Source: Candidatus Kapaibacterium sp. (GTDB lineage Bacteria; Bacteroidota; Ignavibacteria; Kapaibacteriales; UBA2268). Taken from it: a DNA stretch of 64,000 nucleotides. Shown here in pieces: positions 1-15,500 of the stretch. The notes beneath the pieces are model-generated. The model was not told the origin of the DNA. It worked only from the letters and a program-made list of their open reading frames with translations, and did not search any database. The translations under genes were made by a program, and so were the position numbers. Numbering within the stretch: the first letter of the stretch is position 1; each line of letters starts with the position of its first letter. The DNA lies in assembly GCA_963665665.1 (NCBI GenBank), contig OY762428.1, positions 1,888,001 through 1,952,000 on the forward strand, in the 5' to 3' direction.

Positions 1-672
1 GTTTACAAAATTGAAATATGAATTAAAATCTGCTTTTAAGTAAAAGAATTGTTTATTGAAATCAAAAAACTGACCGGAAATATAATTGCCATTTTTACCG
101 AAAATATTTATAGTATCAGGAAGAACTGCTTTTTTATTAGCGATTTCAGGAATAGAGATTTTATCAATTTCAATATCCAGATTTACTTTTTTACTAATTT
201 TAGCATACAACTTATCTCGTGCGAGAACCAACGAATTAAAGGAGTTATCATCAGGCTTCAGTTCATTAGCCGTTGAAATATATTTTTCGAATAGGGACTT
301 AAAATTATCTGCATTTGTTTCAATAGATATTTCGCTTGGTTTAGAAAAAGTGATTAGGTTATTGCTATAGGAATGAAGATAATTCAAATATTTCTCGGAA
401 TAAGAGAAATAATATCCGGGAGATTTTTTAACCAATACCTCATCATTATTTATTTCATTCTGAAATCGTTTAATATCTTTATTAATCCCATTAAGATAGT
501 TTCTTAAAAATTTAACGCTGTCATTTGGAATCAGTTTATTAAGAAAGCTTAATTTTTCAGGAGAATATGAGAAGAACATATTCTTATTATCAACCATCAA
601 CAAGGCAATACTCACCTGCTCGTTTATAACGGGCCGGATGGGAGTAAACATTATAGAATAATAACTTTTCAT
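1..672 (-). CDS. DUF3037-like partner of HipA-like kinase (runs off window edge)
   Basis: Not in ORF track. Hand translation from ATG at 672: MKSYYSIMFTPIRPVINEQVSIALLM...YLNYLHSYSNNLITFSKP...SLFEKYI, open to base 1. Starts 2 nt after the kinase stop. Confidence 0.7.
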   Translation of the reverse strand, partial: MKSYYSIMFTPIRPVINEQVSIALLMVDNKNMFFSYSPEKLSFLNKLIPNDSVKFLRNYLNGINKDIKRFQNEINNDEVLVKKSPGYYFSYSEKYLNYLHSYSNNLITFSKPSEISIETNADNFKSLFEKYISTANELKPDDNSFNSLVLARDKLYAKISKKVNLDIEIDKISIPEIANKKAVLPDTINIFGKNGNYISGQFFDFNKQFFYLKADFNSYFNFVN

Positions 673-674
673 CT

Positions 675-1499
675 TTATTGCCTTAAATAGTAATAATAAT
701 GTAATTCAAATGCCTTTTTTACTTTATCTAACCAATCCTCGTTGAAAAGGTTTCCTATTAAAAAATCACGTTTCAGATCAATATCTATTTCCCAATCTGA
801 TGGTATTATTTGTAATAATCTCTCAAGAGAGTTCTTACAATCATCTACAAAGATCGTAAAATTTTCAAATAAATCGAAAATTATTTCATCATGATTAATT
901 ATTTTTTTCTTGAACAATATTTGGAATAAGTCATGTCTCAAAATTGTATCATTAATAGTTAATTCAATCAAATCTGTATAAGAGTTATTATTAAATATGC
1001 TGCCATGGTCAATTGCATAAAGTCTTGGTTCAGAAGCGGAAGGCTTGAACAACATATTCGGATTATTGTATGTTCTGTCTTCATTTCCAATCCAAATATC
1101 AAATAAAGCTATTTTTAATAAATCCCAAAAATTTATCTTTCTAAGAATTTCTTTTCTTATCAGATTGAAATTTAAATCAATTTCCTTAGTATCCTTCATG
1201 TAATAAGAGGCAAAGCAAGTTTTCGAAAACCACCGGGGCTGCATATCATTTTCAATTGCAAATCTATTAAGGTATTCATTGCCAGGCGAAATAAATGCAA
1301 AATCCGGCGTTGGGATTTTCCAGAATTCAAGAAATGAAGATGCTATATACTCATTGAATGGACTCGTTGATGAAGGATAATTATGCTTACATACATAATC
1401 ATTCAGATCATTACAGGTTACGAGTAAAGGCTTATTGCCGGTATCAAAAACCTTTGCCGGCTCTGTGATTACTGATAAATATCTAATTGGCATATTCAT
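675..1499 (-). CDS. HipA-like Ser/Thr kinase (HipA_2 type)
   Basis: Motifs TGNKPLLV, YVCK, NEYIAS, FDIWIGNEDR..NNPN, AIDHG. Confidence 0.85.
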   Translation of the reverse strand: MNMPIRYLSVITEPAKVFDTGNKPLLVTCNDLNDYVCKHNYPSSTSPFNEYIASSFLEFWKIPTPDFAFISPGNEYLNRFAIENDMQPRWFSKTCFASYYMKDTKEIDLNFNLIRKEILRKINFWDLLKIALFDIWIGNEDRTYNNPNMLFKPSASEPRLYAIDHGSIFNNNSYTDLIELTINDTILRHDLFQILFKKKIINHDEIIFDLFENFTIFVDDCKNSLERLLQIIPSDWEIDIDLKRDFLIGNLFNEDWLDKVKKAFELHYYYYLRQ

Positions 1500-1516
1500 A
1501 CTTTTTTATCCATCCC

Positions 1517-1660
1517 TCACCCCTCCACTATCTTTATTTCGTCTTCGGTCAGGTTGTTGAGCTTATAGACGAGCCGGTCTATTTGCTTATCGGTTATGGC
1601 TATCTGCTTTTGCAGTATTTTCTTTTCCCGGCTAAAGGACTGATAATAGTAGTTGTTCAT
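1517..1660 (-). pseudogene. 47-aa fragment resembling the C-terminal tail of type IIG (Eco57I/TaqI-like) R-M enzymes
   Basis: Hand translation MNNYYYQSFSREKKILQKQIAITDKQIDRLVYKLNNLTEDEIKIVEG*. Confidence 0.65.
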
Positions 1661-1678
1661 AGTTTTTTTCAAAAATCC

Positions 1679-2803
1679 TTAATCGTTTAAGAAATTTATA
1701 AATTCCCTGAGTGAACTTTGCAGTACTTCCCTGGGAATTAGTTCCCGTTCGTATTTTGCTATCATGGTCGGGCTCATACTACGGTTCAACGCGTATTTTA
1801 CAACCTCCCTGTTTGTTTCTTTGCAAAGCAGTATGCCAATCGAAGGATTTTCGTTGCTGCGTTTAACATCATTATCGAGAGCTTCGAGATAAAATTCCAG
1901 CTGCCCCATAAATGCAGGCTCGAATTCATCTGTTTTCAATTCTAAGGCCACCAGGCAATGCAAAGCCCTGTGAAAAAACAATAAATCAATTTTAAATGTT
2001 TTGCTGCCTACCTGAACCGGATATTCCTGCCCCACAAACAGAAAATCTTTGCCAAGTTCAAGTACAAAATCCTTCATGTTTTCCAGGATACTTTTTTGCA
2101 GACGTTTTTCGCTGTGTTTTTGCGGGAGTCCTAAAAAATCAAGATAAGCAACATCCTTGAACATATAATTCGAGCCGGGGTATTTTTTTTGCATTCCGGC
2201 AGACTGAATATTTTCAGATTTTATTATATGGTTATATGTATTGGTTTTAATAGCTCGCCTTAGCTCTTTTACCTCGAGCCGCTCATGATTTGCATACAGG
2301 ATATAGAACAGGCGTTCTCCGTTTGTCCGGCAGCAGTTCAGAATTTCCACATGGCTTGTCCAGTTAATTTTGCCAAGAATAGACGGGAAATTCTCAGGCT
2401 TATAAATTTGTGCAGTTTCAAACTGCACAATTTCACCGGGCTTATTATCATCAGATTCTATTTGTGCAGTTTCCGGCTGCACAATTGCGGCTTTGTATTT
2501 CGTATTGCCGGCCAATTCAATAAATTCATGCGAGGAATAGGTATCGAAAAAACGAACCATATTGTAAATATTACGGCGGCTATAGCCTTTAAGCCCGGGG
2601 TCTTTAGTTCGCAGGTATTCCGACAGTTCCGTAACCACTTTGCTGCCCCATTCACTGCTTTGCAGTTTTGTAGAAACATATTGACCGACGTTCCAGCATA
2701 TAAGCAGGCTTTCGTCGTTTACTGTTTTCAAAGCCCGCGACCGGTGTAGATTAATTATACCGCGGATATGCTCGAAACGGCTGTCTCTTTTATCTGATTT
2801 CAT
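1679..2803 (-). CDS. YhcG/DUF1016 family PDDEXK nuclease domain protein
   Basis: WNVGQY, WGSKVV..LS..L, FKD.AYLDFLGL, ELGKDFLFVGQEY, IDLLFFHR, LELK, ENPSIGILLC. Confidence 0.92.
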   Translation of the reverse strand: MKSDKRDSRFEHIRGIINLHRSRALKTVNDESLLICWNVGQYVSTKLQSSEWGSKVVTELSEYLRTKDPGLKGYSRRNIYNMVRFFDTYSSHEFIELAGNTKYKAAIVQPETAQIESDDNKPGEIVQFETAQIYKPENFPSILGKINWTSHVEILNCCRTNGERLFYILYANHERLEVKELRRAIKTNTYNHIIKSENIQSAGMQKKYPGSNYMFKDVAYLDFLGLPQKHSEKRLQKSILENMKDFVLELGKDFLFVGQEYPVQVGSKTFKIDLLFFHRALHCLVALELKTDEFEPAFMGQLEFYLEALDNDVKRSNENPSIGILLCKETNREVVKYALNRSMSPTMIAKYERELIPREVLQSSLREFINFLND

Positions 2804-2860
2804 AATTTTATCTTTTTCTTTTCAATATATTCATTATCCCATACTATGCAATAACATTTC

Positions 2861-2929
2861 CACCCCTCACCCCTCCACAATCTTTATTTCTTCTTCGGTC
2901 AGGTTGTAAAGATTATAGACGAGCTGGTC
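2861..2929 (-). repeat. Second copy of the R-M-tail repeat (first copy 1511-1579)
   Basis: 62/69 nt identical to 1511-1579; encodes DQLVYNLYNLTEEEIKIVEG* with no start codon. Confidence 0.85.
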
Positions 2930-3265
2930 GAATTCTTCGACAATATTAATAACTAATATCTGTATCAGGAATATTCATATCAGCCTCATAAGTATCAAAC
3001 TGCGAAAAACACCAGTCAACTTTGACTGCCGCTTTGCTAAATTTTTCTACCCTTCGCTCTGCCATTGCCGGAATACTCCCCCGCGAGCATTCAATTTCTA
3101 ATATCGCAAAATTTTTGGAGAATGGCAAGGGGAATCGGATGAATCGAATGAGTTAATTATTATTTTGAAAGAAAGTAAATTTCAGAGCCGTTACTGGGTT
3201 CAAATATAAAATTTTGATACAAAATGTACCAGATATTTTTATGGAATGTTTAGGTAAAAACAATT

Positions 3266-3298
3266 AAGCCTTTGTAAAATATTTATTTACAAAGGCTT
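3266..3298. terminator. Hairpin downstream of the tRNA array
   Basis: AAGCCTTTGTAAA-N7-TTTACAAAGGCTT. Confidence 0.6.
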
Positions 3299-3308
3299 TT
3301 ATTTTATC

Positions 3309-3388
3309 TGGCGGAGAAGGTGGGATTCGAACCCACGATAGCGCTTAACACACTATGTCCCGATTGCATCGGGATGCCTTCAGCCACT
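3309..3388 (-). pseudogene. tRNA-Ser 3' fragment (D-loop to CCA) with substituted anticodon arm
   Basis: Identical to the tRNA at 4046-4135 except the 17-nt hairpin at 3358-3374; lacks the 5' acceptor strand; ends in encoded CCA. Confidence 0.85.
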
Positions 3389-3625
3389 ATTTATCAGTTC
3401 CTTAATATAACTTCTACTTTTCATTTTTTTGATTTTTAATTCATATACCACCGCTTCTGAGCGGCTTTCAAACATCTTTGAATAAACTAATTTCCATGGA
3501 CGGTATGGCTTTGTTGATTTTACAGAGCCGGAATTATGTTTCTCGACCCTTTGCTCAATATTTTCAGTCGATCCAACATAGTAACGGCCTGTACTCAGGC
3601 TTTGTAGTATATAAGTGTAAAACAT
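3380..3625 (-). CDS. Small stand-alone GIY-YIG nuclease, copy 1
   Basis: FYTYIL..YYVGST....RV.KHN.G..T....PWKLVY...SRSEA...E..IKK; upstream GAGG; stop codon lies in the tRNA D-loop copy. Confidence 0.92.
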   Translation of the reverse strand: MFYTYILQSLSTGRYYVGSTENIEQRVEKHNSGSVKSTKPYRPWKLVYSKMFESRSEAVVYELKIKKMKSRSYIKELINSG

Positions 3626-3646
3626 TGAAAATCCTCACCATATATG

Positions 3647-3672
3647 AAAAAAGGGAACCTGTAGTTCCCTTT
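3647..3672 (-). terminator. Intrinsic terminator between tRNA 3' end and GIY-YIG gene (repeated at 4014-4039)
   Basis: Minus strand AAAGGGAAC-TACAG-GTTCCCTTTTTT. Confidence 0.7.
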
Positions 3673-3678
3673 ATCCTG

Positions 3679-3755
3679 CGGAGAAGGTGGGATTCGAACC
3701 CACGATAGCGCTTAACACACTATGTCCCGATTGCATCGGGATGCCTTCAGCCACT
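3679..3755 (-). pseudogene. tRNA-Ser 3' fragment with substituted anticodon arm, no CCA
   Basis: As 3312-3388; hairpin at 3725-3741. Confidence 0.85.
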
Positions 3756-3992
3756 ATTTATCAGTTCCTTAATATAACTTCTACTTTTCATTTTTTTGAT
3801 TTTTAATTCATATACCACCGCTTCTGAGCGGCTTTCAAACATCTTTGAATAAACTAATTTCCATGGACGGTATGGCTTTGTTGATTTTACAGAGCCGGAA
3901 TTATGTTTCTCGACCCTTTGCTCAATATTTTCAGTCGATCCAACATAGTAACGGCCTGTACTCAGGCTTTGTAGTATATAAGTGTAAAACAT
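3747..3992 (-). CDS. Small stand-alone GIY-YIG nuclease, copy 2
   Basis: Protein identical to 3380-3625. Confidence 0.92.
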   Translation of the reverse strand: MFYTYILQSLSTGRYYVGSTENIEQRVEKHNSGSVKSTKPYRPWKLVYSKMFESRSEAVVYELKIKKMKSRSYIKELINSG

Positions 3993-4045
3993 TGAAAATC
4001 CTCACCATATATGAAAAAAGGGAACCTGTAGTTCCCTTTATCCTG

Positions 4046-4135
4046 CGGAGAAGGTGGGATTCGAACCCACGATAGCGCTTAACACACTATGCTGGTTTAG
4101 CAAACCAGTGCCTTCAGCCACTCGGCCACCTCTCC
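4046..4135 (-). tRNA. tRNA-Ser(GCT)
   Basis: GGAGAGG/CTTCTCC acceptor stem, G73, anticodon arm CTGGT-TTGCTAA-ACCAG, long variable arm, GGTTCGAATCC T-arm; CCA not encoded. Confidence 0.96.
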
Positions 4136-4471
4136 GTTTTTCAAATTTTTATCGCCAAGTGTTTTTTTCACTATGTCCCGATTGCATCGGGATGCCTTCA
4201 GCCACTCGGCCACCTCTCCGTTTTTCAAATTTTTATCGCCAAGTGTTTTTTTCACTATGTCCCGATTGCATCGGGATGCCTTCAGCCACTCGGCCACCTC
4301 TCCGTTTTTCAAATTTTTATCGCCAAGTGTTTTTTTCACTATGTCCCGATTGCATCGGGATGCCTTCAGCCACTCGGCCACCTCTCCGTTTTTCAAATTT
4401 TTATCGCCAAGTGTTTTTTTCACTATGTCCCGATTGCATCGGGATGCCTTCAGCCACTCGGCCACCTCTCC
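4136..4471 (-). repeat. 84-bp tandem repeat x4, each a tRNA-Ser 5' half with substituted anticodon arm plus 33-nt spacer
   Basis: cactatg-tcccgattgcatcggga-tgccttcagccactcggccacctctcc at 4169, 4253, 4337 and 4421. Confidence 0.95.
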
Positions 4472-4501
4472 GTTCTGACTGATTGTATCAATCAGAGAGT
4501 A

Positions 4502-4530
4502 CAAATATACAACTAATTTATAATTTCAAA
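4502..4530 (-). promoter_or_regulatory. Putative Bacteroidota-type promoter for the tRNA locus
   Basis: Minus strand TTTG-N17-TATATTTG (TAnnTTTG -7 element) about 30 nt before the first tRNA 5' half; spacer slightly short. Confidence 0.5.
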
Positions 4531-4866
4531 AAAGAATTTTTTCACAATTTATATGAATTTGCTCATTCTGTATGAAATAATATAAGAACAATTGCCGATA
4601 TCTTGTCATATCAGTTTTATTAATAAAAATCAAACAGAAGACAATGCTTGAAGAAAGAACCAGACCAGTAGTTACGAGCCGGTTTATTTATATTATGCAG
4701 ATATTAACCGGTTATATAGCGTTTAATTTTTCAGAGGCGGGGGGATAATAGAAAGAACAAGATATACAAACACCCGGTATGCAAGTACTGATCCTTTCGG
4801 TACTATTATCAGGATCGGGTAAAAATTCCGATGCCACTAATTTGAATTGCTGTTTCGGTATTTGAT

Positions 4867-6279
4867 TTATTTACTACTTGAAACAATAGCTAAGCTGTCC
4901 CGGCCAACTCTTCGCCTCAGGTATTCCCTGAATTTCATAAATCTTCCCTCCAGTTCTGCCTTTTCTTTTCTTTTTTCGGGCAGGTCGTAATCAACAACTA
5001 CTAATGGCTGGAGGTTTCTGTAATTACTATCGTTGATACTTGCCATCAGCCCGAAAGCAAGTTCATTCATTTCAGGGAACCATATCTTTGACTCCGCATA
5101 AACTCTTTGAATAAGGTTAGAATCTACAGTCAGCCTGCGGTTGGCTTCCATCAGGCTGTCAATTCGGCTGTCCAGTGTCGTCTTTACATTTTTCTCAAAC
5201 TCAATTTGCTTCATAACGTTCAGGGCAACGTCATTCAGCATCGCTGCCCTTTCGTCTTCGGGAACGTTCATCTGTACCAGTTTCAGTTGCATATCCTGAA
5301 TTTTGTGGCTGGTAAGGAATCTGCCGTCAAAAACTTCAAGCCTGTCTCGCAGTGTATCGCTTTGTGCCTGGGTAAGTGGTTCGCCAACAACATATATTTT
5401 CAGATACAGTACACTGTCACGGTCAACAGGTTCCCACTTCAGCACATCCCTTTCCTCGTTCCTTATATTATCACCAATAAATGCCTGAACGTCTTTTTCA
5501 AAATTATATTCGGCAATAACATTTACAAGAATATAAACACTCGGAACTGTAACGAATGTTGCAAACGCCATAACCCAACGCTTCATCTTTCTTTTTGATT
5601 CGGGGTTCAGGAATTCCACTTCCGGGAATTTCAGGTAGCGTACAATTATATAAGTAGAAAAACTGATAAAAAAGGCATTAATGAAGAACAGGTAGAAAGC
5701 CCCGAAGAAATACTGCAGGTTACCCGTGGCAAGCCCGAAGCCTGCAGTACAGAGCGGTGGCATAAGGGCTGTGGCAATAGCAACTCCCGGAATAGCATTG
5801 GTTTTGTCTATTCGTGAATTAGCAACTATGCCGGCAACGCCGCCAAAAACCGCCACGCCCACATCGAGCAAAGTAGGAGTGATCCTAGCTGTCATCTCGT
5901 TTGTGGTATTGCCCAAAGGCGTTAGTTTAAAATAAATAAAACTTGTTACAAGGCTGATGCCAACAGCAATAGAGAAATTCTTGAATGAACTGAAAAGCAG
6001 TTCCCGGTCGCTGATACCAACAGCAAGGCCAATACCGAGAATGGAAGACATCAGTGGCGAAATAAGCATAGCGCCTATGATAACAGCGCTGGAATTCAGG
6101 TCAAGGCCTATTGAAGCCAGCATAGCACCGCAAATAAGTATCCATGCATTAGCGCCTCGCATGGGTACGCCGCTCTTTATTGTTGTGATAGTACCGGCCA
6201 TATCGGTAGTACCGGCAAGAGAGAAAATCTTTGTTATCTTTTCTTTCAATATCCTGAGAAGATAAAGCCCTACATTCAT
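4867..6279 (-). CDS. DUF389 membrane protein
   Basis: ASIGL..NSSAVIIGAMLISPLM, IPGVAIATALMPPLCTAGFG. Confidence 0.9.
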   Translation of the reverse strand: MNVGLYLLRILKEKITKIFSLAGTTDMAGTITTIKSGVPMRGANAWILICGAMLASIGLDLNSSAVIIGAMLISPLMSSILGIGLAVGISDRELLFSSFKNFSIAVGISLVTSFIYFKLTPLGNTTNEMTARITPTLLDVGVAVFGGVAGIVANSRIDKTNAIPGVAIATALMPPLCTAGFGLATGNLQYFFGAFYLFFINAFFISFSTYIIVRYLKFPEVEFLNPESKRKMKRWVMAFATFVTVPSVYILVNVIAEYNFEKDVQAFIGDNIRNEERDVLKWEPVDRDSVLYLKIYVVGEPLTQAQSDTLRDRLEVFDGRFLTSHKIQDMQLKLVQMNVPEDERAAMLNDVALNVMKQIEFEKNVKTTLDSRIDSLMEANRRLTVDSNLIQRVYAESKIWFPEMNELAFGLMASINDSNYRNLQPLVVVDYDLPEKRKEKAELEGRFMKFREYLRRRVGRDSLAIVSSSK

Positions 6280-6601
6280 TCAGCCTCCGACAATGAACTG
6301 TTCATAGAAATGCTTCCCACTAAAACTATCGGGTTATTATCAAATCAATTCCCGAACATCACAGATAAAAATATAATTATTTCTATTTAAAACAAAGACA
6401 ATATTGAGTAGTGCTGATATTTACTATTCTATTATCAGGCATTGGTTTCAAACTGAAAATTATCTGCCGGATTATTATCAAAAACTCAATCCCCCGTTCG
6501 GAACAAAAATCTCTTATCCCGGAGGGCCGAAACAGAGCAGAAATTGCAACCAAAAAAGATGAAGGGAAGAGTAATGTAAATTCTTTCCCGGGTAAAAACA
6601 T

Positions 6602-8587
6602 TTAATTCACAGCAGGAAGTGTAAAGCTGAATTCGCTGCCTTTGTCCTTACTGCTTTGAACCGAAATACTGCCACCATGTTTTTCTACAAATTCCTTGCA
6701 AAGTATCAAACCCAGGCCGGTGCCTTTTTCCTCGGAGGTACCGATGGTTGTGTGATTAACGTCTATCCGGAAAAGTTTTTGCATATCCTGATCGGAAATT
6801 CCTATTCCGGTATCAATTACCGAAACTTTTATATCGTCTTTTTCCCTGACAGATTTAACAGTGATATTCCCGCCTTCCGGTGTAAATTTTATTGCATTAA
6901 GCACAAGATTCCTGAGTACGGTAATTATCATGTTTGTATCAATATTTGCCTTCAGGGAATTCTGAATTGCAGATTGAAGAGTAATATTTTTACGGGCAGC
7001 ATTTCCCGATGTAAGCTCAAGCACATTATCGATAATGGGTTTTAACTCATAAATATCGGGTTTATAGTCAATTCGTCCGGTCTGAGACCTGGCCCAAACC
7101 AGCAGATTTTCGAGAAGCGCATAAACCTGGCTGCATGATTTATTCATTAGCATAATCGATTCTTTTTTCTCAATTTCATCAAGCACATCATATCCCGAGC
7201 TCATTGAATGAGAAATTTCCTTTACGGCCCAAAGCGGGCTTTTCAGGTCATGGGCAATTATCGAGAAAAATTTATCTTTGGTAGCTATCAGCTCGCGAAG
7301 TTTGTTGTTGTTGTTTTTCATTTTTCTGTTGAAGCGATAAATAATAAAGCTTATCGCAGCAATCATCAGAACTATCAGCGCCATAAAAATAATTATGGTT
7401 TTTTGCCTGCCAATTTCCATATCCTTTATCTTATTATCTTTTTTCAACACCTTGTTCTCTATCTCCATTTTCTCGGTTTCGTAAAGGAACTTAAGGTCAT
7501 TTATCTGCTTCATGCTTGCTTCATTCATTATCGAGTCGTTCAGGAGAAGGAATTTATCATAATAATCCACGGATTTTTTATAACTCCCGGTTTCATAGTA
7601 AATTCTTTTCAGGTGAAAATATGCTTTCTTCTGAACTTCAATAAGCCCGGCTTTTTCTGCATGGGAAATACCATTGTGGATATAATCAATAGCAATATTG
7701 AACTTTCCGGATTTAGAATACATAATTCCAATATTTATCATATTTACTGCAATATCTTTTATTACTCCGGTCTTTTTATTTATATCAAGAGACAAGCTGT
7801 AATATTCAATTGCTTTTTTGAAATCTCCTTTTTCGGAATAAATATTAGCTATGTTTGTATAATGATTAGAAATGCCGATTTGATAATTTAACTCTTTGTC
7901 GATATCCAATGCTTTGAAATAATAATACAAAGAGCTGTCGTAATTCTTTTTTGCAAAATGCATCAGCCCGATATTACTAAGATTGAAAGAAAGGCTGCTT
8001 TTATCGCCGTGTATTAAGTTTAAATTATAAGCCTCGAACAAGTTAGCCAATCCTATATCGTATTCCTGAAGATAGTAATATACAGCACTTAAATTGCCGA
8101 GTTTTACAGCAATGCCGGATGAATCGCCGATCTTCTTGTCCAGTTCTATTCCCTTTGTATAGAATTCAATAGCTTTTGGGTAATTTGCAAAGCCCGTGTA
8201 TATTATTGCAATATTACTTATCTGTTTGGACATAGCAATACTGTCCTTAAGTTGCTGGCTAAGCTTTAGTGCAGACTTATAATATTTCAAAGCCTTAGAC
8301 ATATTGCCGGAATAATAATGTGTTGTTCCCAGCAGGTTACTGGCTTTTTTTTCAAGGTTTTTCAAGCTGAATTCACGAGATAATTCAAGGGCTTTTTCCG
8401 CATAAGGAAGTGCATCCGACGGCCTTGTCCTGACCTTCGAGGTAGCTTTGTCAATCAGTAGCAATACTTTCGAACTGTCATCAGGAATGCCTGTTAGCAG
8501 GCTGTCTAAATTCTCTGCCTGGGAAAATGTTGATCCGGGTGAAATAACACATAAAAATAACAGAAAGAATGCCCTGAGCATTTTCAT
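6602..8587 (-). CDS. TPR-containing sensor histidine kinase
   Basis: Signal peptide, TPRs, TM helix, KDKFFSIIAHDLKSP, NAIKF, DTGIG, GTGLGL. Confidence 0.92.
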   Translation of the reverse strand: MKMLRAFFLLFLCVISPGSTFSQAENLDSLLTGIPDDSSKVLLLIDKATSKVRTRPSDALPYAEKALELSREFSLKNLEKKASNLLGTTHYYSGNMSKALKYYKSALKLSQQLKDSIAMSKQISNIAIIYTGFANYPKAIEFYTKGIELDKKIGDSSGIAVKLGNLSAVYYYLQEYDIGLANLFEAYNLNLIHGDKSSLSFNLSNIGLMHFAKKNYDSSLYYYFKALDIDKELNYQIGISNHYTNIANIYSEKGDFKKAIEYYSLSLDINKKTGVIKDIAVNMINIGIMYSKSGKFNIAIDYIHNGISHAEKAGLIEVQKKAYFHLKRIYYETGSYKKSVDYYDKFLLLNDSIMNEASMKQINDLKFLYETEKMEIENKVLKKDNKIKDMEIGRQKTIIIFMALIVLMIAAISFIIYRFNRKMKNNNNKLRELIATKDKFFSIIAHDLKSPLWAVKEISHSMSSGYDVLDEIEKKESIMLMNKSCSQVYALLENLLVWARSQTGRIDYKPDIYELKPIIDNVLELTSGNAARKNITLQSAIQNSLKANIDTNMIITVLRNLVLNAIKFTPEGGNITVKSVREKDDIKVSVIDTGIGISDQDMQKLFRIDVNHTTIGTSEEKGTGLGLILCKEFVEKHGGSISVQSSKDKGSEFSFTLPAVN

Positions 8588-8968
8588 ATAAAGTCTCCTT
8601 GAATTGTTACGGAGGCAATTTATACGAAAATAGTATTATAAACAAATTAATAATTGAATAATGTTGCACCTACTCACTGATGTAATTATACGGTTATGGA
8701 GTATGCAACTTACAAAAAAGGAATTTTTATCTTTCATCTAAAAATCCAAGGCCAATTATTTTTCTTAGGATATTGTTCTATCGCTTGATTATAAAAATGA
8801 TAATCAAAACAGTCAATATTCCGCTGATTTTCGTGGCATACCGTGATATTTTCAGAAAAGCAGGTTTAACATATCAGTACTATCCTTTTAAATATCAGCC
8901 ATATACAATTATTGGCATGAGATTATCCGGTAATATTATAAATTTCTAATTACAATAAATGGATTATT

Positions 8969-9721
8969 ATGAAATATGATATATTAAGAAAAGCTGACCA
9001 GGCAGTTGGCGGATTTAACAACGGTGAAATAATCGAAAATAAACCAATAGGTTTTCCGGGTGAAACAAACGGATTTAAACCATATTCAAATTTATTCTAC
9101 TGGGCAAACGCAAGTTCCCGGAATGAATCACTTATCGCAGAACATCCACATCAGGGGTTCGAGATAATGTCCTTTGTTTTGAAAGGGTACATTGAGCATT
9201 ACGATAGTAAAAACAAAGACTGGCGCAGATTAAACCCCGGTGATGCCCAGATAATCCGTGCCGGTAACGGGATTACTCACGCTGAAAAAATGGGTACTGA
9301 TACCCAGTTTTTCCAAATATGGTTTGATCCGGGCCTTCAAAAAACTTTGGGAATGCCTGCCTCATACAATGATTATAAAAACGAAAGCTTCAGTGTGAAA
9401 ACCAATGAAAACCTTAAAATGAGAACCTATGTTGGCAAGGATAGCCCGATAATTATGGAGTCTGAAAATGTAACAGTTAAGCTTTTGGATATTGATCCGG
9501 GTGATATAAGTTTTAAGGTGGACGAAGGAAATATCTTATCAGCATATCTGATTGAAGGTAAAATACACGTTGACGGCCATGATTTGGTTAATGACGATTT
9601 TTTCAGGTTTGCCGGAACTAATATTAATATACGGTCTTATGAACATAGCAGGCTTTTTGTTATTGAATCACCTGCAGTGCCATCATATAAAACTTACGGA
9701 CAGCTATATGGCAGGGGTTAG
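8969..9721 (+). CDS. Pirin family protein
   Basis: HPHQGFE, H.DS, AGNGITHAE, FQIW. Confidence 0.88.
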   Translation: MKYDILRKADQAVGGFNNGEIIENKPIGFPGETNGFKPYSNLFYWANASSRNESLIAEHPHQGFEIMSFVLKGYIEHYDSKNKDWRRLNPGDAQIIRAGNGITHAEKMGTDTQFFQIWFDPGLQKTLGMPASYNDYKNESFSVKTNENLKMRTYVGKDSPIIMESENVTVKLLDIDPGDISFKVDEGNILSAYLIEGKIHVDGHDLVNDDFFRFAGTNINIRSYEHSRLFVIESPAVPSYKTYGQLYGRG

Positions 9722-9745
9722 AATCCCTGCCTTACAGCACTATGC

Positions 9746-10681
9746 TTAAAATCGCTTAGTATAGAAATGGCAATAAGGTTTGCTGCCTTTACGCTCGTAG
9801 TAGTCCTGATGATAATCCTCTGCAGGCCAGAATTCAGCTGCCGGGGTTAATTCCGTAGCAACATCATATCCCTTTGCTTCAAGCAAGCCTATGAGGTTTT
9901 TTGCAATAATTTTCTGTTTTTCATCGAAATAGAATACTTCGGATCTGTATTGATCCCCAATATCCGGTCCCTGCCGGTTTACCTGTGTAGGATCATGTGT
10001 TTCAAAATACAATCTTGCAAGTGTTTCATAATCTGTCTTCAATGGATCGTAAACAACCTTCACGGCTTCTGCATGGCCTGTATTCCCGGAGCAAACCTGT
10101 TCATAGGAAGGATTATCAACATGCCCGCCAATATACCCGACAGTAGTGGAAATAACACCCGGTTCCTTTGAGAAATGATACTCTGTTCCCCAGAAACACC
10201 CCGAAGCGAAAATTGCTGTTTCAGCATTAACGCTTCCGGGATCCAGTGGTTCAAAGAGAAGGGATATGGAATTTACGCAATGCCGGGTATTCTTCTCAGT
10301 AAAGCCTTCACCAAGGAACACATGCCCCAGGTGGCCTCCGCAGTTTGCACATACAATCTCTGTTCTGTGTCCGTCAGCATCCGGTACCCTTTTCACCGCA
10401 CCGTCAATTTCATCGTCAAAGCTGGGCCATCCGCAGTGCGAATCAAATTTATCTTCCGACTGATACAGCTCTGCACCGCATTGTTTGCATTTATACACTC
10501 CGCTTTCTTTATGAAATGTATATTCACCGCTGAAGGGCCTTTCTGTACCTTTATTAATTATAACTCTTTCCTCTTCCGGTGTAAGCTTGTTAAATTCCAT
10601 ACTTTCAGTTACCTCTTTGTCTTTACAGTTAGTTAATCCTGTCATTGAAAACAGCACAGCTAAATATATTATCAATTTCAT
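9746..10681 (-). CDS. msrAB: Bifunctional methionine sulfoxide reductase MsrB-MsrA with lipoprotein-like signal
   Basis: KGTERPF, CGWPSF, GHLGHVF, RHCVNS, then GCFWG, GHAEAV, AEDYHQDY; start placed at ATG 10681 after GGAGG. Confidence 0.93.
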   Translation of the reverse strand: MKLIIYLAVLFSMTGLTNCKDKEVTESMEFNKLTPEEERVIINKGTERPFSGEYTFHKESGVYKCKQCGAELYQSEDKFDSHCGWPSFDDEIDGAVKRVPDADGHRTEIVCANCGGHLGHVFLGEGFTEKNTRHCVNSISLLFEPLDPGSVNAETAIFASGCFWGTEYHFSKEPGVISTTVGYIGGHVDNPSYEQVCSGNTGHAEAVKVVYDPLKTDYETLARLYFETHDPTQVNRQGPDIGDQYRSEVFYFDEKQKIIAKNLIGLLEAKGYDVATELTPAAEFWPAEDYHQDYYERKGSKPYCHFYTKRF

Positions 10682-10834
10682 ATAGCCTCCATTAATTTTA
10701 CTATTAGTGACGGCTAATTTGTAAATTTGTTGAACAGAGATATGGGGAGTTGTAATTTTTGATTTTACATAATTTGCCGGCAATGTAAAAAATGGGTATT
10801 TTTGTTAAAATGAAGAAACGTGAAGGATGAAACG

Positions 10835-11773
10835 ATGAAGAAGTTAGTTATTCTGTTTATTATTCTTGCTGCAACAAATTATCTTTATTCAACAGTAAGC
10901 GACAGTTCAAACTGGAAAAAGGGAGGCGCCGCCAGCCTGGTGTTCAACCAGATAGCATTCTCTAATTGGGCGAAGGGCGGCGAAAGTTCTGTTTCGGGAA
11001 CATCTGCATTGAGTTTCTTTGCAAACTTTAAAGACAGTGATATTGTTTGGGATAATTCTGCGGACTTTGCCTTCGGAATAATGTATTCCGACCAATTTGA
11101 AACCAGAAAGACAGAAGATAAAATCGATTTAAGCTCTCAATTTGGTTATCGCGGGTTTGGCGATTATTATTATAGTGTTTTGCTTAGTTTTAAAACTCAA
11201 TTTGCCGAAGGATTCAATTATCCCAATGATTCTGTTCTTGTTTCAAAATTCATGGCTCCTGCCTATCTTGTGATGTCAACGGGGATGGACTATAAGCCAA
11301 ACGAAGGATTTTCTGTATATCTTTCGCCTGTAACCGGCAGAATAATTTTCGTGGAAGACCAGAACCTGGCAAACAACGGTTCATTCAGTGTTGACCCTGC
11401 CGTTAAAGACAGCCTGGGTAATATTATTAAGCCCGGCAAAAAAATCCGGGCTGATTTCGGCGCTTACCTGACTCTTAAATACAAAAAGCAAATAATCGAG
11501 AATGTAGGTTTTAAAACAAACATCAATCTGTTCAACAATTATACAGATAAGGATTCCGGCAATCGGGATAATATTGATGTAAACTGGGAAAGCTCGCTTG
11601 ACATGAAGGTGAATGATTTTATAACTTCAAATATATTTGTCCACCTGATATACGACGACAATATCAATGTTCCACTATACGATTATCAGAACGGAATAAA
11701 AACAAAAACAGGTGAAGGGCCAAGATTACAGGTAAAGGAAATTCTGGGGATTGGTTTAAAATATAAATTTTAA
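10835..11773 (+). CDS. DUF3078 outer-membrane protein
   Basis: Signal peptide, NQIAFSNW.KGG, FKTQF..G, terminal LQVKEILGIGLKYKF. Confidence 0.85.
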   Translation: MKKLVILFIILAATNYLYSTVSDSSNWKKGGAASLVFNQIAFSNWAKGGESSVSGTSALSFFANFKDSDIVWDNSADFAFGIMYSDQFETRKTEDKIDLSSQFGYRGFGDYYYSVLLSFKTQFAEGFNYPNDSVLVSKFMAPAYLVMSTGMDYKPNEGFSVYLSPVTGRIIFVEDQNLANNGSFSVDPAVKDSLGNIIKPGKKIRADFGAYLTLKYKKQIIENVGFKTNINLFNNYTDKDSGNRDNIDVNWESSLDMKVNDFITSNIFVHLIYDDNINVPLYDYQNGIKTKTGEGPRLQVKEILGIGLKYKF

Positions 11774-11855
11774 TTTTCATTTTTATTCTTATTTTTTTTA
11801 TTTTTATACTATCATAGATATTACAACATGTTTCATTACACAAAGGTTATTTATT

Positions 11856-12071
11856 ATGGCACAATGTGAATGTTTGGAAGGATGTCCTTTTTTTCATGAT
11901 AAAATGGAAAACATGCCATCGATGGCGGAAACATATAAAAACAAATACTGCCTTGGCGATTTTGAAGAATGTGCACGATATATCGTCTTTTCAAAAAAAG
12001 GGAAACCCGCAGTACCCAAAAATCTCTTTCCGAACCAGAAAGAAAAAGCCCTTGCAATTGTTAATTCATAA
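11856..12071 (+). CDS. Small Cys-rich hypothetical protein
   Basis: C.C...CPFF...YC......CAR...VP.NLFPN; followed by a terminator. Confidence 0.75.
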   Translation: MAQCECLEGCPFFHDKMENMPSMAETYKNKYCLGDFEECARYIVFSKKGKPAVPKNLFPNQKEKALAIVNS

Positions 12072-12093
12072 ATTTGTGAATTATAATATTTCT

Positions 12094-12128
12094 AAAAAGC
12101 AACTCTATTTTCCGGAGTTGCTTTTTTT
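12094..12128 (+). terminator. Intrinsic terminator
   Basis: AAAAAGCAACTC-loop-GAGTTGCTTTTTTT. Confidence 0.8.
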
Positions 12129-12550
12129 AATGATATATCTTCTCTTTCCATAGAAATTTTTATCAGATTCGATCATTTAAATGAAAATCAATGATATTAT
12201 AAAGTCAGGATTTAATTTAAAATTACTCCTGTTCGTTCTTTTTATCAGGAGATGGCTCGAAAGCCGTATAAGATTATTTCCCTTGAAATGATAAAGGAGT
12301 GCCCGGATATATCGGGGAGAATAATTATAAAGCATTTCTCCGGAAGAATGTTTTTTTTAGGCTGGTTGTACATTATAATTATTCTTTTCCGTTGAATGCA
12401 CTATGATTTGTAATATCGGAGATCCGGCCGATTATAGATTAGATATTTGATATTTCCTAAATTATCCTTATTATGTTAAAAATATTACAGGCAAATTTTT
12501 TTGCGGATAAATAATGATCTTATTCTGAAATATAATATAGCGGAGTAGTA

Positions 12551-15500
12551 ATGCCGGATACCAAAATCAAATTCGGTCTTAGTATTAAAACCCTGGTAGC
12601 TTTTGGCTCATTATTTTTATTGTTCTTTTTGATCAGTGGAAAATTCATTTCTGATATTATCGAGGATCTTATAATTGATCAGCTGGATCAGTCTATGGAA
12701 GTTTTTGTAAATGATGAAGCTTCTGATATTACAGAATTTTTCAGAAGGATAAAGAAAACCGGCGTAAAATCCTCCTTATTTATTTCAAAAATGATCCGTG
12801 ATGATAAAATTTTAAAAGACAGTGACTATAATAGTAAATATACAAGATTCAACAAATCAATAAGAACAGATACAAGTAAAATAAAAAACAAAGATATTTC
12901 AGGAGTATTTATATCTGAAATTTCGCCTGATACTGAAAGATCAATTGAATTGGTTAAAAGAACCGAAACAGGCTTTGATGAATATGCAAAAGGGCTTTCT
13001 GTTTCAATTTTCAATATGTATTTCATCACAAAAGGCCAGATGATCAGGATATATCCCAAGAATTGGGCTTTGCAAATTGAAGGCAATCATAATTTCCATG
13101 AAGATATTTTTTATTCAATTGCTACTCCTGAAAATAATCCGGGTAGATTACCGGTTTGGACTGAGCCATATTACGATCCGATATGGAAGCATTGGATGAC
13201 CTCACTTATAACTCCTGTTTATGTTGATAATAAATTTGAAGGTATTGTAGGGCATGATGTGATTCTTGATGAAATATATCTTGAAGTTCTGAGCAAAAGA
13301 TTTTACAAGACCGGTTACGGGATGATTTTTAATTCAAAAGGGCACATGATAATTTCGCCGGAACTTGCCCAAACCAAGTTGAAAAATAAAAATATCGATA
13401 TATTTGAAAATTATAGCCACCGGGAGGAAACTGAAATATTCAAAGCAATTGACAAGCTGAATAATTCCCTGCTAAATGATAAATCCTTAAAAAAAATTGA
13501 TTATTCTGACAACAGTGATTCATACTTTGTTGTTAGCAAAAAACTGGATTTCCTGGATTGGCATCTTGGTATAGTAATTCCAGCCTCTGAAGCACTTAGT
13601 GGTTTGCCGGCTTTTTACACAAATTTTGCAATTATAGTCCTGCTGTTCTTGTTAGTTCTTCTGATATCAGTTATAATTATTACCAGGCTGATAATACTTA
13701 AACCGATATATGAATTAAACAAAGCAGCTATCAAAATCAGTGAACAAAACTTCGAAAGTAGAATTGAGATAAAAGGGCACGATGAAATTTCTCAGCTCGC
13801 AGAGTCTTTTGTTAAAATGAAAATAAAACTGAAAGACACAATGCAGCAACTAAAAAGAGACCTGACAAAGCGTGAGAAAATGAAAAACGCAATAATGCTG
13901 AGCGAAGAAAAATACAGGGCCGTGATAGATAATGCCAACGAAGTAATCTTAATTGCTCAGGACGGTCTTATTAAATTCTTTAATCCTGCATTCCCGGATA
14001 TTGCCGGTTATACCGATGAAGAATGTATGGAGCAGCCCTTCATGAAATTTCTGCATGAAGATGACAGGGATATGGTGCTGAGGAACCACTACATGAGATT
14101 AAAAGGTGAGCAGGTAAAAGATTATTACGTCACCCGAATTCGCTCTAAAGTCGGTTCGATAATTTGGCTTGAAATCAAACCAGTTTTGATTAACTGGGAT
14201 GGCAAACCTGCTACTCTGAATTTTATTACTGATGTTACTCAAAAAATTAAAGCAGAAAAAGCGTTAAAGCAATCCGAGAAAAAATACAGGCAGCTATACG
14301 AAAACATGATCGAATCCTTTGCCCTCGTGGATATGAAGGGTAATATCCTGGATATGAATCCTGCTTTTGAAAAACTTATCGGCTATTCACGCGAAGAACT
14401 GAAAAAAATGTCTTATAAAGATATTACACCTGAAAAATGGTGGCCGATAGAACATAAACTTATCTATGAGCAGGTTATTCCAAAAGGTTATTCGGATAAC
14501 TATGAAAAAGAGTATATCAGAAAAGACGGAAAGATAATTCCTGTTGAGCTTCATATCTTCATTCTGAAGGATGATAGAGGCGAAAATATTGGTATGTGGT
14601 CATTTGTAAGGGATATAAGCGAAAGAAAACGCATTGAACAATTAATGAAAGAGAGAATAGATTCGCTGACCAAACCATTAACAGACAGTGTGAACTATTC
14701 ATTCGAACTTCTTTTTGATATTGAAAAAATTCAGGAAATTCAGGATGCCTTTTCAGAAGCAACAGGAGTTGCTGCATTAATAACCGAACCCGACGGAACA
14801 CCGATAACCAAACCAAGCCGGTTTACATTTTTCTGTGAGCATATTGTCCGGAAAAGCGAAAAAGGCAGAAACAACTGTATTATCAGTGATGCTGAAATAA
14901 GAAATAACTCCGGAAAGGAATTATATATTGCACCTTGCAAAAGTGCAGGCCTTTGGGATGGTGGTACAAAAATCATGGTTGGTGACCAGCACATTGCAAA
15001 CTGGCTTTTCGGACAGGTAAAAAATGAAAAGACAAATTTGTTATCCCTGGAGAAATATGCTGATGAAATAGGCGCTGACAAAAAAGAATACATGGCAGCT
15101 TTGGAAAAAGTTCCGGAAATGTCCTTGGAGCAATTTGAAAAAATTGGTTTGGCAATCACCCTGATGGCAGATCAGCTTTCTCAGTTGGCTTACAAAAATA
15201 TTCAGCAGGCCAGAGCTATAGAGGAAAGAAGAAAAGCCGAGGAAAGAGTAAAAAAACTGAATGCAGATCTTGAGCTGAAAGTTGAAGAAAGAACTGCCGA
15301 ATTACAAGTTGCTAAGGACAAACTTGAACTTGCCCTGCAAAGCGAGAAGGAACTAAGCGCTCTTAAAACCAGGTTTGTTTCCATGGTTTCGCATGAATAC
15401 CGTACACCTCTTACTGTTATAATGCTATCAACTTATGTGCTGGAAAAAATTATCGAAAATTCCGATAAATCTAATGAACAATTGAAAAAAATCAGGCACA

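What the first reader, a model, noticed from the sequence alone, without database searches (positions are those of the whole stretch)
3309..4471. tRNA-Ser gene bracketed by arrays of its own halves, coupled to a tandem GIY-YIG nuclease
Seen, in minus-strand order: promoter, 4 x 84-bp units (tRNA 5' half + spacer), intact tRNA-Ser(GCT), 2 x 367-bp units (terminator, GIY-YIG ORF, tRNA D-loop to 3' end), final hairpin. The nuclease's last codons and stop (AGT GGC TGA) are the tRNA D-loop sequence. No integrase or transposase is nearby. Known: integrative elements duplicate one tRNA end using an integrase, and GIY-YIG domains occur in homing endonucleases. Inference: a minimal selfish element whose nuclease targets tRNA genes and amplifies by repair or recombination, or a locus making tRNA-fragment RNAs that partner the nuclease. 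I do not recognise this arrangement as a described system.
Basis: partly seen in the sequence, partly recalled or inferred. Interest (0 to 1): 0.9.

Follow-up and report, generated by a model that had tools for sequence, protein, structure and literature searches.

The report
Tiny nuclease element riding tRNA genes
A very small nuclease gene sits behind a serine tRNA gene among partial copies of that tRNA whose anticodon arm is swapped for a conserved hairpin, and the same layout recurs behind many different tRNA genes in many bacterial phyla, so it looks like a widespread selfish element that I could not find described.

Summary
On the minus strand there are four 84-bp units, the genome's only tRNA-Ser(GCT), and two 367-bp units. 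Each 367-bp unit holds an 81-aa GIY-YIG gene and a copy of the tRNA from position 14 to its 3' end.

All six partial copies carry a 17-nt hairpin (TCCCGAT-GCA-ATCGGGA) exactly where the anticodon stem-loop should be. The two arrays abut that stem-loop on either side.

The layout recurs elsewhere. Of the 80 best homologue loci from many phyla, 68 have a same-strand tRNA within 200 bp, of more than 20 anticodon types. Of the 50 loci with the tRNA upstream, 38 carry a downstream partial copy. A strict TCCCG...CGGGA hairpin lies near the gene in 54 of 80 loci, with compensatory stem changes. Within one genus the site is empty in three genomes and occupied or decayed in four.

No integrase lies nearby. 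Seven literature searches found no description.

Best reading (about 0.57): a minimal selfish element living in tRNA genes, co-transcribed with the tRNA, spread and amplified by recombination between tRNA repeats, probably stimulated by its Slx1-like nuclease. The nuclease target and the hairpin's role are not shown. An RNA-partner reading stays open.

The parts
4502..4509 (-). Promoter-like TATATTTG box, 31 nt upstream of the first 5' unit.
   Evidence: Read. The same box precedes tRNA-Ser(GCT) in relatives. That TAnnTTTG is the Bacteroidota-type -7 element is recalled, not tested. The sigma-70 scan does not list it.
4136..4471 (-). Four 84-bp '5' units'. Each holds tRNA positions 1-27, the hairpin, 7 nt of the variable arm (CATAGTG) and a 33-nt spacer.
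   Evidence: TRF array 4109-4474, 4.4 copies, 100% matches; sequence.
4428..4444 (-). Hairpin TCCCGAT-GCA-ATCGGGA in 5' unit 1. The same 17-mer lies at 4344-4360, 4260-4276 and 4176-4192 in units 2-4.
   Evidence: Exact-match search of the whole genome finds six copies, all at this locus. It folds as a 7-bp stem with a 3-nt loop.
4045..4135 (-). Intact tRNA-Ser(GCT), the only one in the genome.
   Evidence: ARAGORN; Rfam tRNA 59.7 bits.
4092..4108 (-). Anticodon stem-loop of the intact tRNA (positions 28-44). It is the only part of the gene that lies in neither array.
   Evidence: The 84-bp array ends at 4109 and the 367-bp array starts at 4091 (read).
4017..4039 (-). Terminator-like hairpin with a T run between the tRNA and nuclease copy 1. 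It is repeated at 3650-3672.
3747..3992 (-). GIY-YIG nuclease gene, copy 1 (81 aa). Its stop codon lies in the D-loop of the following tRNA copy.
3678..3755 (-). 3' partial tRNA copy 1: positions 14-27, hairpin (3725-3741), positions 45-76.
   Evidence: ARAGORN miscalls it 'tRNA-Cys'. It has no Rfam tRNA hit.
3380..3625 (-). GIY-YIG nuclease gene, copy 2, identical protein.
3311..3388 (-). 3' partial tRNA copy 2, with the hairpin at 3358-3374. The native downstream flank follows.
3266..3298 (-). Final 13-bp terminator-like hairpin, probably the native tRNA terminator.

Best explanation
The locus holds a minimal selfish genetic element that lives inside or beside tRNA genes. Its parts are an 81-aa Slx1-like GIY-YIG nuclease gene and one or more partial copies of the resident tRNA gene. 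In these copies the anticodon arm (in some relatives the T arm) is replaced by a conserved GC-rich hairpin.

The element keeps one intact tRNA, so the host loses nothing. It has no promoter of its own in many relatives and is read from the tRNA promoter.

The partial copies are direct repeats of the two halves of the tRNA (positions 1-27 and 45-76). Recombination between them and the intact gene inserts, deletes and tandemly amplifies the units. This explains why both arrays here end exactly at the anticodon stem-loop.

The conserved tRNA sequence serves as a portable landing pad, which lets the element move between species and, more rarely, between tRNA types.

Shown: the anatomy, its recurrence, the co-orientation with tRNA genes, the presence/absence/decay pattern and the hairpin covariation.

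Inferred: that the nuclease makes the breaks that drive the recombination, where it cuts, and that the hairpin either keeps the copy from being a target or a functional tRNA, or is the protein's recognition element.
For: 1. Link to tRNA genes. Of the 80 best homologue loci from one scan of 185,579 species genomes, 68 have a same-strand tRNA within 200 bp (50 upstream, 17 downstream, 1 both). Three more lie at a contig edge. By my estimate from about 50 tRNA genes in 5.46 Mb, fewer than 1 in 100 random positions would lie this close.

2. Partial copies. Of the 50 loci with the tRNA upstream, 38 have a downstream 3' fragment, 17 have an upstream 5' fragment, and 13 have a tandem nuclease gene. 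Fragment borders cluster at tRNA positions 27/28 and 44-46.

3. Hairpin. TCCCG-N2-20-CGGGA lies near the gene in 54 of 80 loci: 92 hits in 71 kb near the gene against 15 hits in 356 kb elsewhere. Among 72 distinct hairpins, stem pair 6 is A-T in 49 and C-G in 17. Loops are mostly 2-4 nt.

4. Turnover in one genus of 7 genomes. Three sites are empty, three are occupied (one of them, G134, with a degenerate nuclease gene lacking a start), and one holds a nuclease pseudogene with stop codons. In the order, 61 of 254 genomes have a homologue.

5. Native flanks. The native promoter and leader run straight into the first 5' unit, both in G136 compared with the empty G135 and in this genome compared with G009.

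6. Switching. tRNA type clusters on the protein tree but switches often: 40 changes against 56.9 for shuffled labels, with 0 of 200 shuffles as low. A tRNA-Pro(CGG) clade carries labels of three phyla.

7. Co-transcription. The start codon lies 4-11 nt after the tRNA 3' end in 8 of the 50 upstream-tRNA loci.

8. Nuclease. Catalytic-type residues are invariant in 77 sequences: Y16, G18, R26, H30, E62. The nearest solved structures are UPF0213 proteins and SLX1.

9. Precedent. Phage T6 SegB, also a GIY-YIG enzyme, drives recombination-dependent tandem amplification of a tRNA-plus-segB unit (PMC13096335, passages read).
Against: No activity, cleavage site or target has been shown.

An 81-aa protein has no room for a separate DNA-binding domain.

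If the nuclease cut the anticodon region of tRNA genes, the intact gene kept by the element would stay a target. Simple homing logic therefore does not close.

Breaking homology or inactivating a copy would not need a conserved hairpin placed exactly in the anticodon-arm slot. That points to a structural role at the RNA or single-strand level.

Some nuclease-less hairpin-bearing units have their own promoter-like box and terminator (L081, L103). One genome has a lone 5' unit with no nuclease gene downstream of that tRNA; the protein search found none in that 81%-complete, 600-contig genome (G005).

The vehicle of transfer is unknown: only 2 weak hits in 50,697 phage records, and plasmids were not searched.

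The phylum labels of metagenome bins may be imprecise.
Confidence: 0.57

Rival explanations
1. RNA-partner system. The hairpin-bearing tRNA copies are made as stable tRNA-scaffolded RNAs. The hairpin is the handle for the small nuclease. The tRNA-derived flanks then guide, tether or regulate the enzyme. Possible forms are an R-loop on the tRNA gene, a three-quarter-tRNA 'external guide' for RNase P or RNase Z processing of the shared transcript, or auto-regulation of the nuclease message.
For: The hairpin replaces the anticodon arm with borders at positions 27/28 and 44-46 across many tRNA types. The stem covaries while loops vary from 2 to 6 nt, which fits a folded hairpin better than a duplex site for a dimer. 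All units are co-oriented with the tRNA and lie in its transcript. Nuclease-less units have their own promoter-like box and terminator. The protein is too small to carry sequence specificity for more than 20 tRNA types by itself.
Against: G.T versus A.C mismatches in the stems (28 versus 20) give no strand signal for RNA. Most 3' copies lack the 5' acceptor strand and most 5' units lack the T arm, so neither folds as a whole tRNA. No GIY-YIG enzyme is known to me to use an RNA partner (recalled).
Confidence: 0.2
2. Passive hitch-hiker. The small GIY-YIG protein is a host repair or housekeeping factor that merely tends to sit in tRNA operons. The tRNA fragments are scars of replication slippage at highly transcribed genes. 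Neither mobility nor a function of the hairpin is involved.
For: Bacterial Slx1-like proteins have been seen as repair factors (PMC1564403, passages read). More distant relatives in the same order are not tRNA-linked: 1 of 18 loci L025-L042 has an adjacent tRNA.
Against: Distribution is patchy, with empty sites and pseudogenes in one genus. There are more than 20 tRNA anticodon types. The hairpin is conserved and covarying, whereas slippage scars would not share a sequence across phyla.
Confidence: 0.08
3. Addiction or defence module. The nuclease is a toxin held in check by the repeat RNAs, as in type III toxin-antitoxin systems, where a promoter is followed by short tandem repeats, a terminator and then the toxin. 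Alternatively, the tRNA look-alikes act as decoys for tRNA-cutting enzymes.
For: The order here is promoter, 4.4 short repeats, tRNA, terminator hairpin, nuclease. This resembles the ToxIN layout (recalled; ToxIN is mentioned in PMC13096335).
Against: Most relatives have no upstream repeats (17 of 50) and no terminator between tRNA and gene. There is no match above noise in PADLOC (E=0.0089). The anticodon arm, the usual target of tRNA-cutting toxins, is just what the copies lack.
Confidence: 0.07
4. Assembly artefact. The arrays are mis-assembled repeats.
For: Perfect tandem repeats are error-prone in assembly, and reads could not be examined.
Against: The genome is one contig of 5.46 Mb. The same architecture with tandem units occurs in many independent assemblies, for example L048 with five full units and a sixth partial nuclease match, L074 with three, plus G011 and G023. 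Assemblers tend to collapse repeats, not expand them.
Confidence: 0.02

Closest known systems
Free-standing GIY-YIG homing endonuclease SegB of T-even phages
   Same: It is a GIY-YIG nuclease gene placed among tRNA genes. It associates with tRNAs of many isotypes. It forms tandem units of tRNA plus nuclease gene by homologous recombination after nuclease-made breaks, with microhomology between the tRNA and the gene's 3' end (PMC2330249, search listing and abstract start only; PMC13096335, passages).
   Different: SegB is a phage protein with a DNA-binding part, and it amplifies whole functional tRNA genes. Here the protein is an 81-aa catalytic core of the Slx1/UPF0213 branch on bacterial chromosomes. 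The amplified tRNA copies are partial and carry a conserved hairpin in place of the anticodon arm. No such hairpin came up in the SegB passages I read.
Integrase-borne genomic islands and prophages in tRNA genes
   Same: A direct repeat of part of the tRNA flanks the insert, and an intact tRNA is kept.
   Different: There is no integrase or other recombinase within about 10 kb. The insert is only about 290 bp. The repeat carries a substituted arm. Repeats of the 5' half also occur upstream.
Bacterial Slx1-like / UPF0213 minimal GIY-YIG proteins (PDB 1ZG2, 1YWL)
   Same: They are the best sequence matches among solved structures (E=2e-8 and 1.6e-6). They have the same minimal size and the same conserved core.
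   Different: These proteins have no known link to tRNA genes in the papers I could search. More distant relatives in the same order are not tRNA-linked.
TnpB/IS605 'homing by guide RNA' and RNase P external guide sequences (functional analogies only)
   Same: A mobile element makes an RNA from its own end, and that RNA carries host-flank sequence. Three-quarter tRNA molecules with a dispensable anticodon arm can direct RNase P (recalled).
   Different: There is no homology. No RNA has been shown here. The TnpB reference was seen only as a search listing and abstract start (PMC10690162).

Membership tests
GIY-YIG nuclease superfamily (Pfam PF01541) | Match to the domain model above the curated cut-off. 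| tested here: met
   E=8.5e-18, 64.9 bits against a cut-off of 22.6, residues 1-71.
GIY-YIG nuclease superfamily (Pfam PF01541) | Conserved Tyr, Tyr-x-Gly, Arg and Glu of the active site. | tested here: met
   Y16, G18, R26, H30, E62 are invariant and Y5 nearly so in 77 sequences. Their assignment as catalytic residues is recalled from I-TevI and UvrC.
Slx1-like / UPF0213 branch | Closest to UPF0213 and SLX1 rather than to I-TevI or UvrC; minimal domain without added domains. | tested here: met
   PDB hits are 1ZG2, 1YWL and SLX1 chains only. The protein is 81 aa. The NCBIfam group I intron endonuclease model scores 20 bits against a cut-off of 56.
Homing endonuclease gene (free-standing) | Presence/absence polymorphism at one homologous site, with decayed copies. 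| tested here: met
   In genus g50, 3 sites are empty, 3 are occupied (one with a degenerate nuclease gene) and 1 holds a pseudogene with stop codons.
Homing endonuclease gene (free-standing) | Site-specific cleavage of the empty allele and immunity of the occupied allele. | not testable with these tools
The occupied locus still holds an intact tRNA.
Homing endonuclease gene (free-standing) | A DNA-binding module that gives a long recognition site. | tested here: not met
   Only the catalytic core is present.
Integrase-mediated tRNA-site island | A tyrosine or serine recombinase gene in the element. | tested here: not met
   Pfam scans of ORFs of 150 aa or more in 1-16036 find none.
tRNA gene (for the partial copies that ARAGORN calls tRNA-Cys) | Rfam tRNA model at gathering score, with a paired acceptor stem. 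| tested here: not met
   There is no tRNA hit, and tRNA-Sec scores 21.2 bits against 47. My own reading of the sequence gives 4 of 7 acceptor pairs. The true tRNA-Cys elsewhere in the genome has an unrelated anticodon arm.
Type III toxin-antitoxin (ToxIN-like) | An endoribonuclease toxin of a ToxN-type family, plus an upstream repeat RNA. | tested here: not met
   The protein is GIY-YIG. There is no PADLOC match better than E=0.0089. Upstream repeats are absent in 33 of 50 relatives.

The most novel reading that the evidence does not exclude
The hairpin-bearing tRNA copies are made as tRNA-scaffolded RNAs. They load the 81-aa GIY-YIG core through the conserved hairpin and bring it, through their tRNA-derived flanks, to tRNA genes or transcripts. 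This would be a minimal, naturally retargetable RNA-assisted nuclease system, unrelated to Cas, TnpB or IscB, that has colonised more than 20 kinds of tRNA gene in many phyla.
Probability: 0.13. Interest if true: 0.95.

Novelty: new variant of a known kind. Interest (0 to 1): 0.8.

Why it matters
If this reading is right, one of the smallest autonomous mobile units in bacteria (about 290-370 bp: an 81-aa nuclease plus a marked tRNA copy) has gone unnoticed, although it sits behind tRNA genes in Ignavibacteriota, Bacteroidota, Patescibacteria, Pseudomonadota and other phyla.

It would show how a nuclease with no DNA-binding domain can still be tied to a class of targets, through conserved tRNA sequence or structure. 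It would also extend the phage SegB 'tRNA accordion' to bacterial chromosomes.

It offers a conserved hairpin-protein pair that can be tested at the bench. Cultured Flavobacterium, Pedobacter, Lunatimonas and Melioribacter strains carry copies.

There is a practical side as well. The copies are miscalled as tRNA genes with false anticodons: here two 'tRNA-Cys', elsewhere 'tRNA-Cys(aca)' and 'tRNA-???'. Such calls pollute tRNA inventories.

Tried and rejected
Origin of the substituted arm from the genome's true tRNA-Cys: rejected. Its anticodon arm is unrelated, and the 17-mer occurs only at this locus.

Integrase-type island: rejected, because no recombinase is present.

Known RNA family for the units: none. 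The Rfam E-value scan of 2500-5500 gives only the intact tRNA and sub-threshold noise.

Defence or phage family names: PADLOC gives nothing meaningful. PHROGs gives only a generic 'homing endonuclease with GIY-YIG motif' at E=2.7e-5. NCBIfam gives nothing above its cut-off.

Phage carriage: 2 weak hits in 50,697 phage records. Plasmids and viral contigs were not searched.

Strand test for an RNA hairpin: G.T versus A.C mismatches were 28 versus 20. This is inconclusive, and most mismatches lie outside the core stem.

Homodimer prediction for the nuclease: no answer. It counts neither for nor against anything.

Fold of the 84-nt unit: z=-3.5, with a possible pairing of D-arm and spacer. I did not follow this up in relatives.

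Literature: seven full-text searches found no description of small GIY-YIG genes with hairpin-substituted tRNA copies. Term look-ups in three of the four papers opened (PMC1564403; PMC5737381; PMC12455944) found none either, and the passages read of the fourth (PMC13096335) showed no such hairpin. Supplements were closed, and subscription journals are not in the library, so prior description elsewhere cannot be excluded.

Mechanisms I thought through and could not make fit the anatomy:
- Simple target-site duplication does not supply the hairpin.
- Snap-back repair scars would not share a sequence across tRNA types.
- Integration into the anticodon loop itself does not fit, because the nuclease gene is not between hairpin halves.
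Full report
**What is at the locus**

Read on the minus strand, the region runs in this order:
- a TATATTTG box (4509-4502);
- four 84-bp units (4471-4136);
- an intact tRNA-Ser(GCT) (4135-4045);
- two 367-bp units that end at about 3309;
- a 13-bp terminator-like hairpin (3298-3266).

Tandem Repeats Finder scores the two arrays at 732 (4.4 copies, 100% matches) and 1564 (2.1 copies, 99% matches). ARAGORN and Rfam agree on the intact tRNA.

Each long unit holds a terminator-like hairpin, an 81-aa ORF that matches Pfam GIY-YIG at E=8.5e-18, and the tRNA from position 14 to its 3' end. The ORF's last codons and stop, AGT GGC TGA, are the D-loop of that copy.

In every one of the six partial copies, the 17-nt anticodon stem-loop of the real tRNA (CTGGTTTGCTAAACCAG) is replaced by TCCCGATGCAATCGGGA. 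This folds as a 7-bp stem with a 3-nt loop.

The replacement explains ARAGORN's two false 'tRNA-Cys(gca)' calls. Rfam gives them no tRNA score. The genome's true tRNA-Cys has an unrelated arm.

The 84-bp array ends at tRNA position 27 and the 367-bp array begins at position 45. The anticodon stem-loop is therefore the only unique part of the intact gene.

The genome is one 5.46-Mb contig. It has no other tRNA-Ser(GCT) and no other copy of the nuclease gene. No recombinase lies within about 10 kb. The neighbours are a DUF389 protein, a YhcG-type nuclease, a HipA-like kinase, histidine kinases, Pirin and MsrAB.

**Recurrence in relatives**

In the same order, 61 of 254 genomes have a homologue. 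The closest ones (44-56% identity) all sit directly after a tRNA:
- five after tRNA-Ser(GCT), with one or two tandem nuclease units;
- others after tRNA-Asp or tRNA-Pro.

Each tRNA-Ser-linked unit ends in a copy of that genome's own tRNA whose anticodon arm is replaced by TCCCGA(T)-loop-(A)TCGGGA. Two of these genomes (G134, G140), and a third in the same genus (G136, found by the DNA search), also have upstream arrays of the 5' half plus hairpin, as here. In the tRNA-Asp cases, and in one tRNA-Ser case, the T arm is replaced by a similar hairpin.

More distant relatives in the order are not tRNA-linked: 1 of 18 loci.

**Recurrence across bacteria**

I examined the best 80 loci. They carry labels of Ignavibacteriota, Bacteroidota, several Patescibacteria phyla, Pseudomonadota, Chloroflexota, Acidobacteriota, Elusimicrobiota and others.

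- 68 of 80 have a same-strand tRNA within 200 bp (50 upstream, 17 downstream, 1 both). Three more are cut by a contig end.
- The nine remaining loci were not all inspected. Five of the six loci that I read still show hairpin-bearing tRNA copies. Those six were four of these nine, one further locus whose upstream is cut short, and one contig-edge locus.
- Of the 50 loci with the tRNA upstream, 38 have a downstream 3' fragment, 17 have an upstream 5' fragment, 39 have the strict hairpin, and 13 have a tandem nuclease gene.
- The fragment borders lie at positions 27/28 and 44-46 in most cases.
- In the class with the tRNA downstream (mostly Patescibacteria), the order is mirrored: 5' part, hairpin, nuclease gene, intact tRNA.

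The fullest form is therefore [1-27]-hairpin-[45-5x] ... {intact tRNA, nuclease} ... [1x-27]-hairpin-[45-76]. This reads like a tRNA gene whose anticodon arm has been replaced by an insert that brings a spare tRNA and a nuclease.

**The hairpin**

The strict motif TCCCG-N2-20-CGGGA is about 30 times denser near the nuclease gene than elsewhere in the same loci: 92 hits in 71 kb against 15 hits in 356 kb. It is present near the gene in 54 of 80 loci.

Among 72 distinct hairpins, stem pair 6 is A-T in 49 and C-G in 17, and pair 7 is T-A in 38, C-G in 11 and A-T in 6. Loops are mostly 2-4 nt. Other clades carry different but still paired stems, for example TCCGGC/GCCGGA and GGCGCC/GGCGCC.

Pairing is thus selected and loop length is free. 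This fits a folded hairpin (RNA or single-stranded DNA) better than a duplex site for a dimer.

A test for strand bias of wobble pairs was inconclusive. The 3' arm TCGGGA equals the anticodon loop of tRNA-Pro(CGG) as seen in the alignments. That may hint at the hairpin's origin, but this is only an inference.

**Signs of a selfish element**

In one genus of seven genomes, the tRNA-Ser(GCT) site is:
- empty in three;
- occupied in three (one with a degenerate nuclease gene and a damaged 3' copy);
- occupied by a nuclease pseudogene with stop codons, and no fragments, in one.

Where an empty relative is available, the native promoter and leader run straight into the first 5' unit (G136 against G135; this genome against G009).

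The arms of the partial copies match the resident tRNA of each genome, often at 100%, although the proteins are only about 50% identical. So the copies are kept in step with the host tRNA, presumably by gene conversion (inference).

On a quick maximum-likelihood tree of 85 proteins with only 81 columns, tRNA type is clustered but changes often: 40 changes against 56.9 for shuffled labels, with 0 of 200 shuffles as low. The window's protein groups with a mainly tRNA-Pro(CGG) set (SH-aLRT 96), not with the other tRNA-Ser(GCT) ones.

**How it most likely works**

Shown:
- a nuclease gene with intact catalytic-type residues, nearest to UPF0213 and SLX1 structures;
- strict co-orientation with the tRNA and close spacing, with the start codon 4-11 nt after the tRNA end in 8 of the 50 upstream-tRNA loci;
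- direct repeats of both tRNA halves on either side of the intact gene.

Inferred:
- The gene is read from the tRNA promoter.
- Unequal recombination between the intact tRNA and the partial copies adds and removes units. This explains two arrays that end exactly at the anticodon stem-loop.
- A single crossover in the 45-76 arm (or the 1-27 arm) would insert one unit while restoring an intact tRNA.
- The nuclease supplies the breaks, as SegB does in phage T6. There, a 718-bp tRNA-Tyr-plus-segB unit is amplified in a nuclease- and recombination-dependent way (PMC13096335, passages read).
- The widely conserved D-arm and T-arm blocks that flank the hairpin could give enough microhomology for occasional jumps to other tRNA types.

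Open problems:
- An intact tRNA stays in the occupied locus, so a cut in the anticodon region would not spare the carrier.
- The protein is too small for long-site recognition.
- The hairpin is conserved beyond what mere inactivation needs.

These points keep an RNA-partner or structure-guided reading alive. That reading is also hinted at by nuclease-less units with their own promoter-like box and terminator and by a lone 5' unit with no nuclease gene beside its tRNA, in an 81%-complete genome where the protein search found none.

**Comparison with what is known, and novelty**

The protein is a member of the GIY-YIG superfamily and of its Slx1-like minimal branch (PMC1564403, passages).

The system works most like free-standing homing endonucleases near tRNA genes (SegB). 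It fails one defining feature of that kind, the DNA-binding module. Its cleavage specificity cannot be tested here. It is not an integrase island and not a ToxIN-type module.

Seven full-text searches found no description of this architecture, nor did what I read of four opened papers. The library lacks most subscription journals, and supplements were closed.

I rate it a new variant of a known kind, with a modest chance (about 0.13) of being something categorically new if the hairpin RNA proves to partner the nuclease.

**Limits**

Only the best 80 of at least 567 relatives were examined. Taxon labels of metagenome bins may be wrong. The tree has few columns. The homodimer prediction gave no answer.

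Noticed in passing
window 3309-3401 and 3678-3768 (-); L082:3234-3304; L018:1425-1512: tRNA finders call the hairpin-substituted partial copies as tRNA genes with false anticodons: 'tRNA-Cys(gca)' here, 'tRNA-Cys(aca)' and 'tRNA-???' elsewhere. Automatic tRNA inventories of genomes that carry the element will be inflated.
   Followed up: partly
L036 (G171:C79) and L039 (G006:C42): A GIY-YIG domain of the more distant 'GYMYIL...' type is inserted in frame into type I restriction HsdR-like proteins longer than 900 aa. It is flanked on both sides by short peptide repeats (SSPTAS..., VGER..., PELVDSV...). Dunin-Horkawicz et al. 2006 noted such an HsdR insertion (PMC1564403).
   Followed up: no
L024 (G201:C6), about 1180-1830: A tRNA-Pro(TGG)-linked copy is surrounded by three partial tRNA-Pro 3' copies. 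These carry two different inserted hairpins (GTGATGCTTCAGCATTAT and TCACGCATTTTGCGTGA types) instead of the TCCCG...CGGGA hairpin.
   Followed up: no
L002 (G005:C562), upstream of tRNA-Ser(GCT) at 1400-1488: There is a single 5' unit (positions 1-27, hairpin TCCCGATGGCTATCGGGA, spacer) between the promoter and the intact tRNA. No nuclease gene lies downstream, and none was found in that 81%-complete genome.
   Followed up: partly
L081 and L103: Tandem nuclease-less hairpin-bearing tRNA copies are each preceded by a TAnnTTTG-like box and followed by a terminator hairpin. They look like independently transcribed small RNA genes.
   Followed up: partly
window 675-2803 (-): Directly downstream of the locus lie a YhcG/DUF1016 PDDEXK nuclease gene (1679-2803) and a HipA-like kinase gene (675-1499). 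They may be part of a variable or defence-type region beside the tRNA.
   Followed up: no
window 4391-4474 (-): The 84-nt unit is predicted to pair its D-arm segment (GCCGAGUG) with CACUUGGC in the spacer (z=-3.5). A similar CTTGGC word is in the spacer of the G005 unit.
   Followed up: no
L124 (G140) and L128 (G136): Parts of the 5' arrays and of the nuclease gene in these genomes read N (withheld bases), so their unit counts are lower bounds.
   Followed up: no
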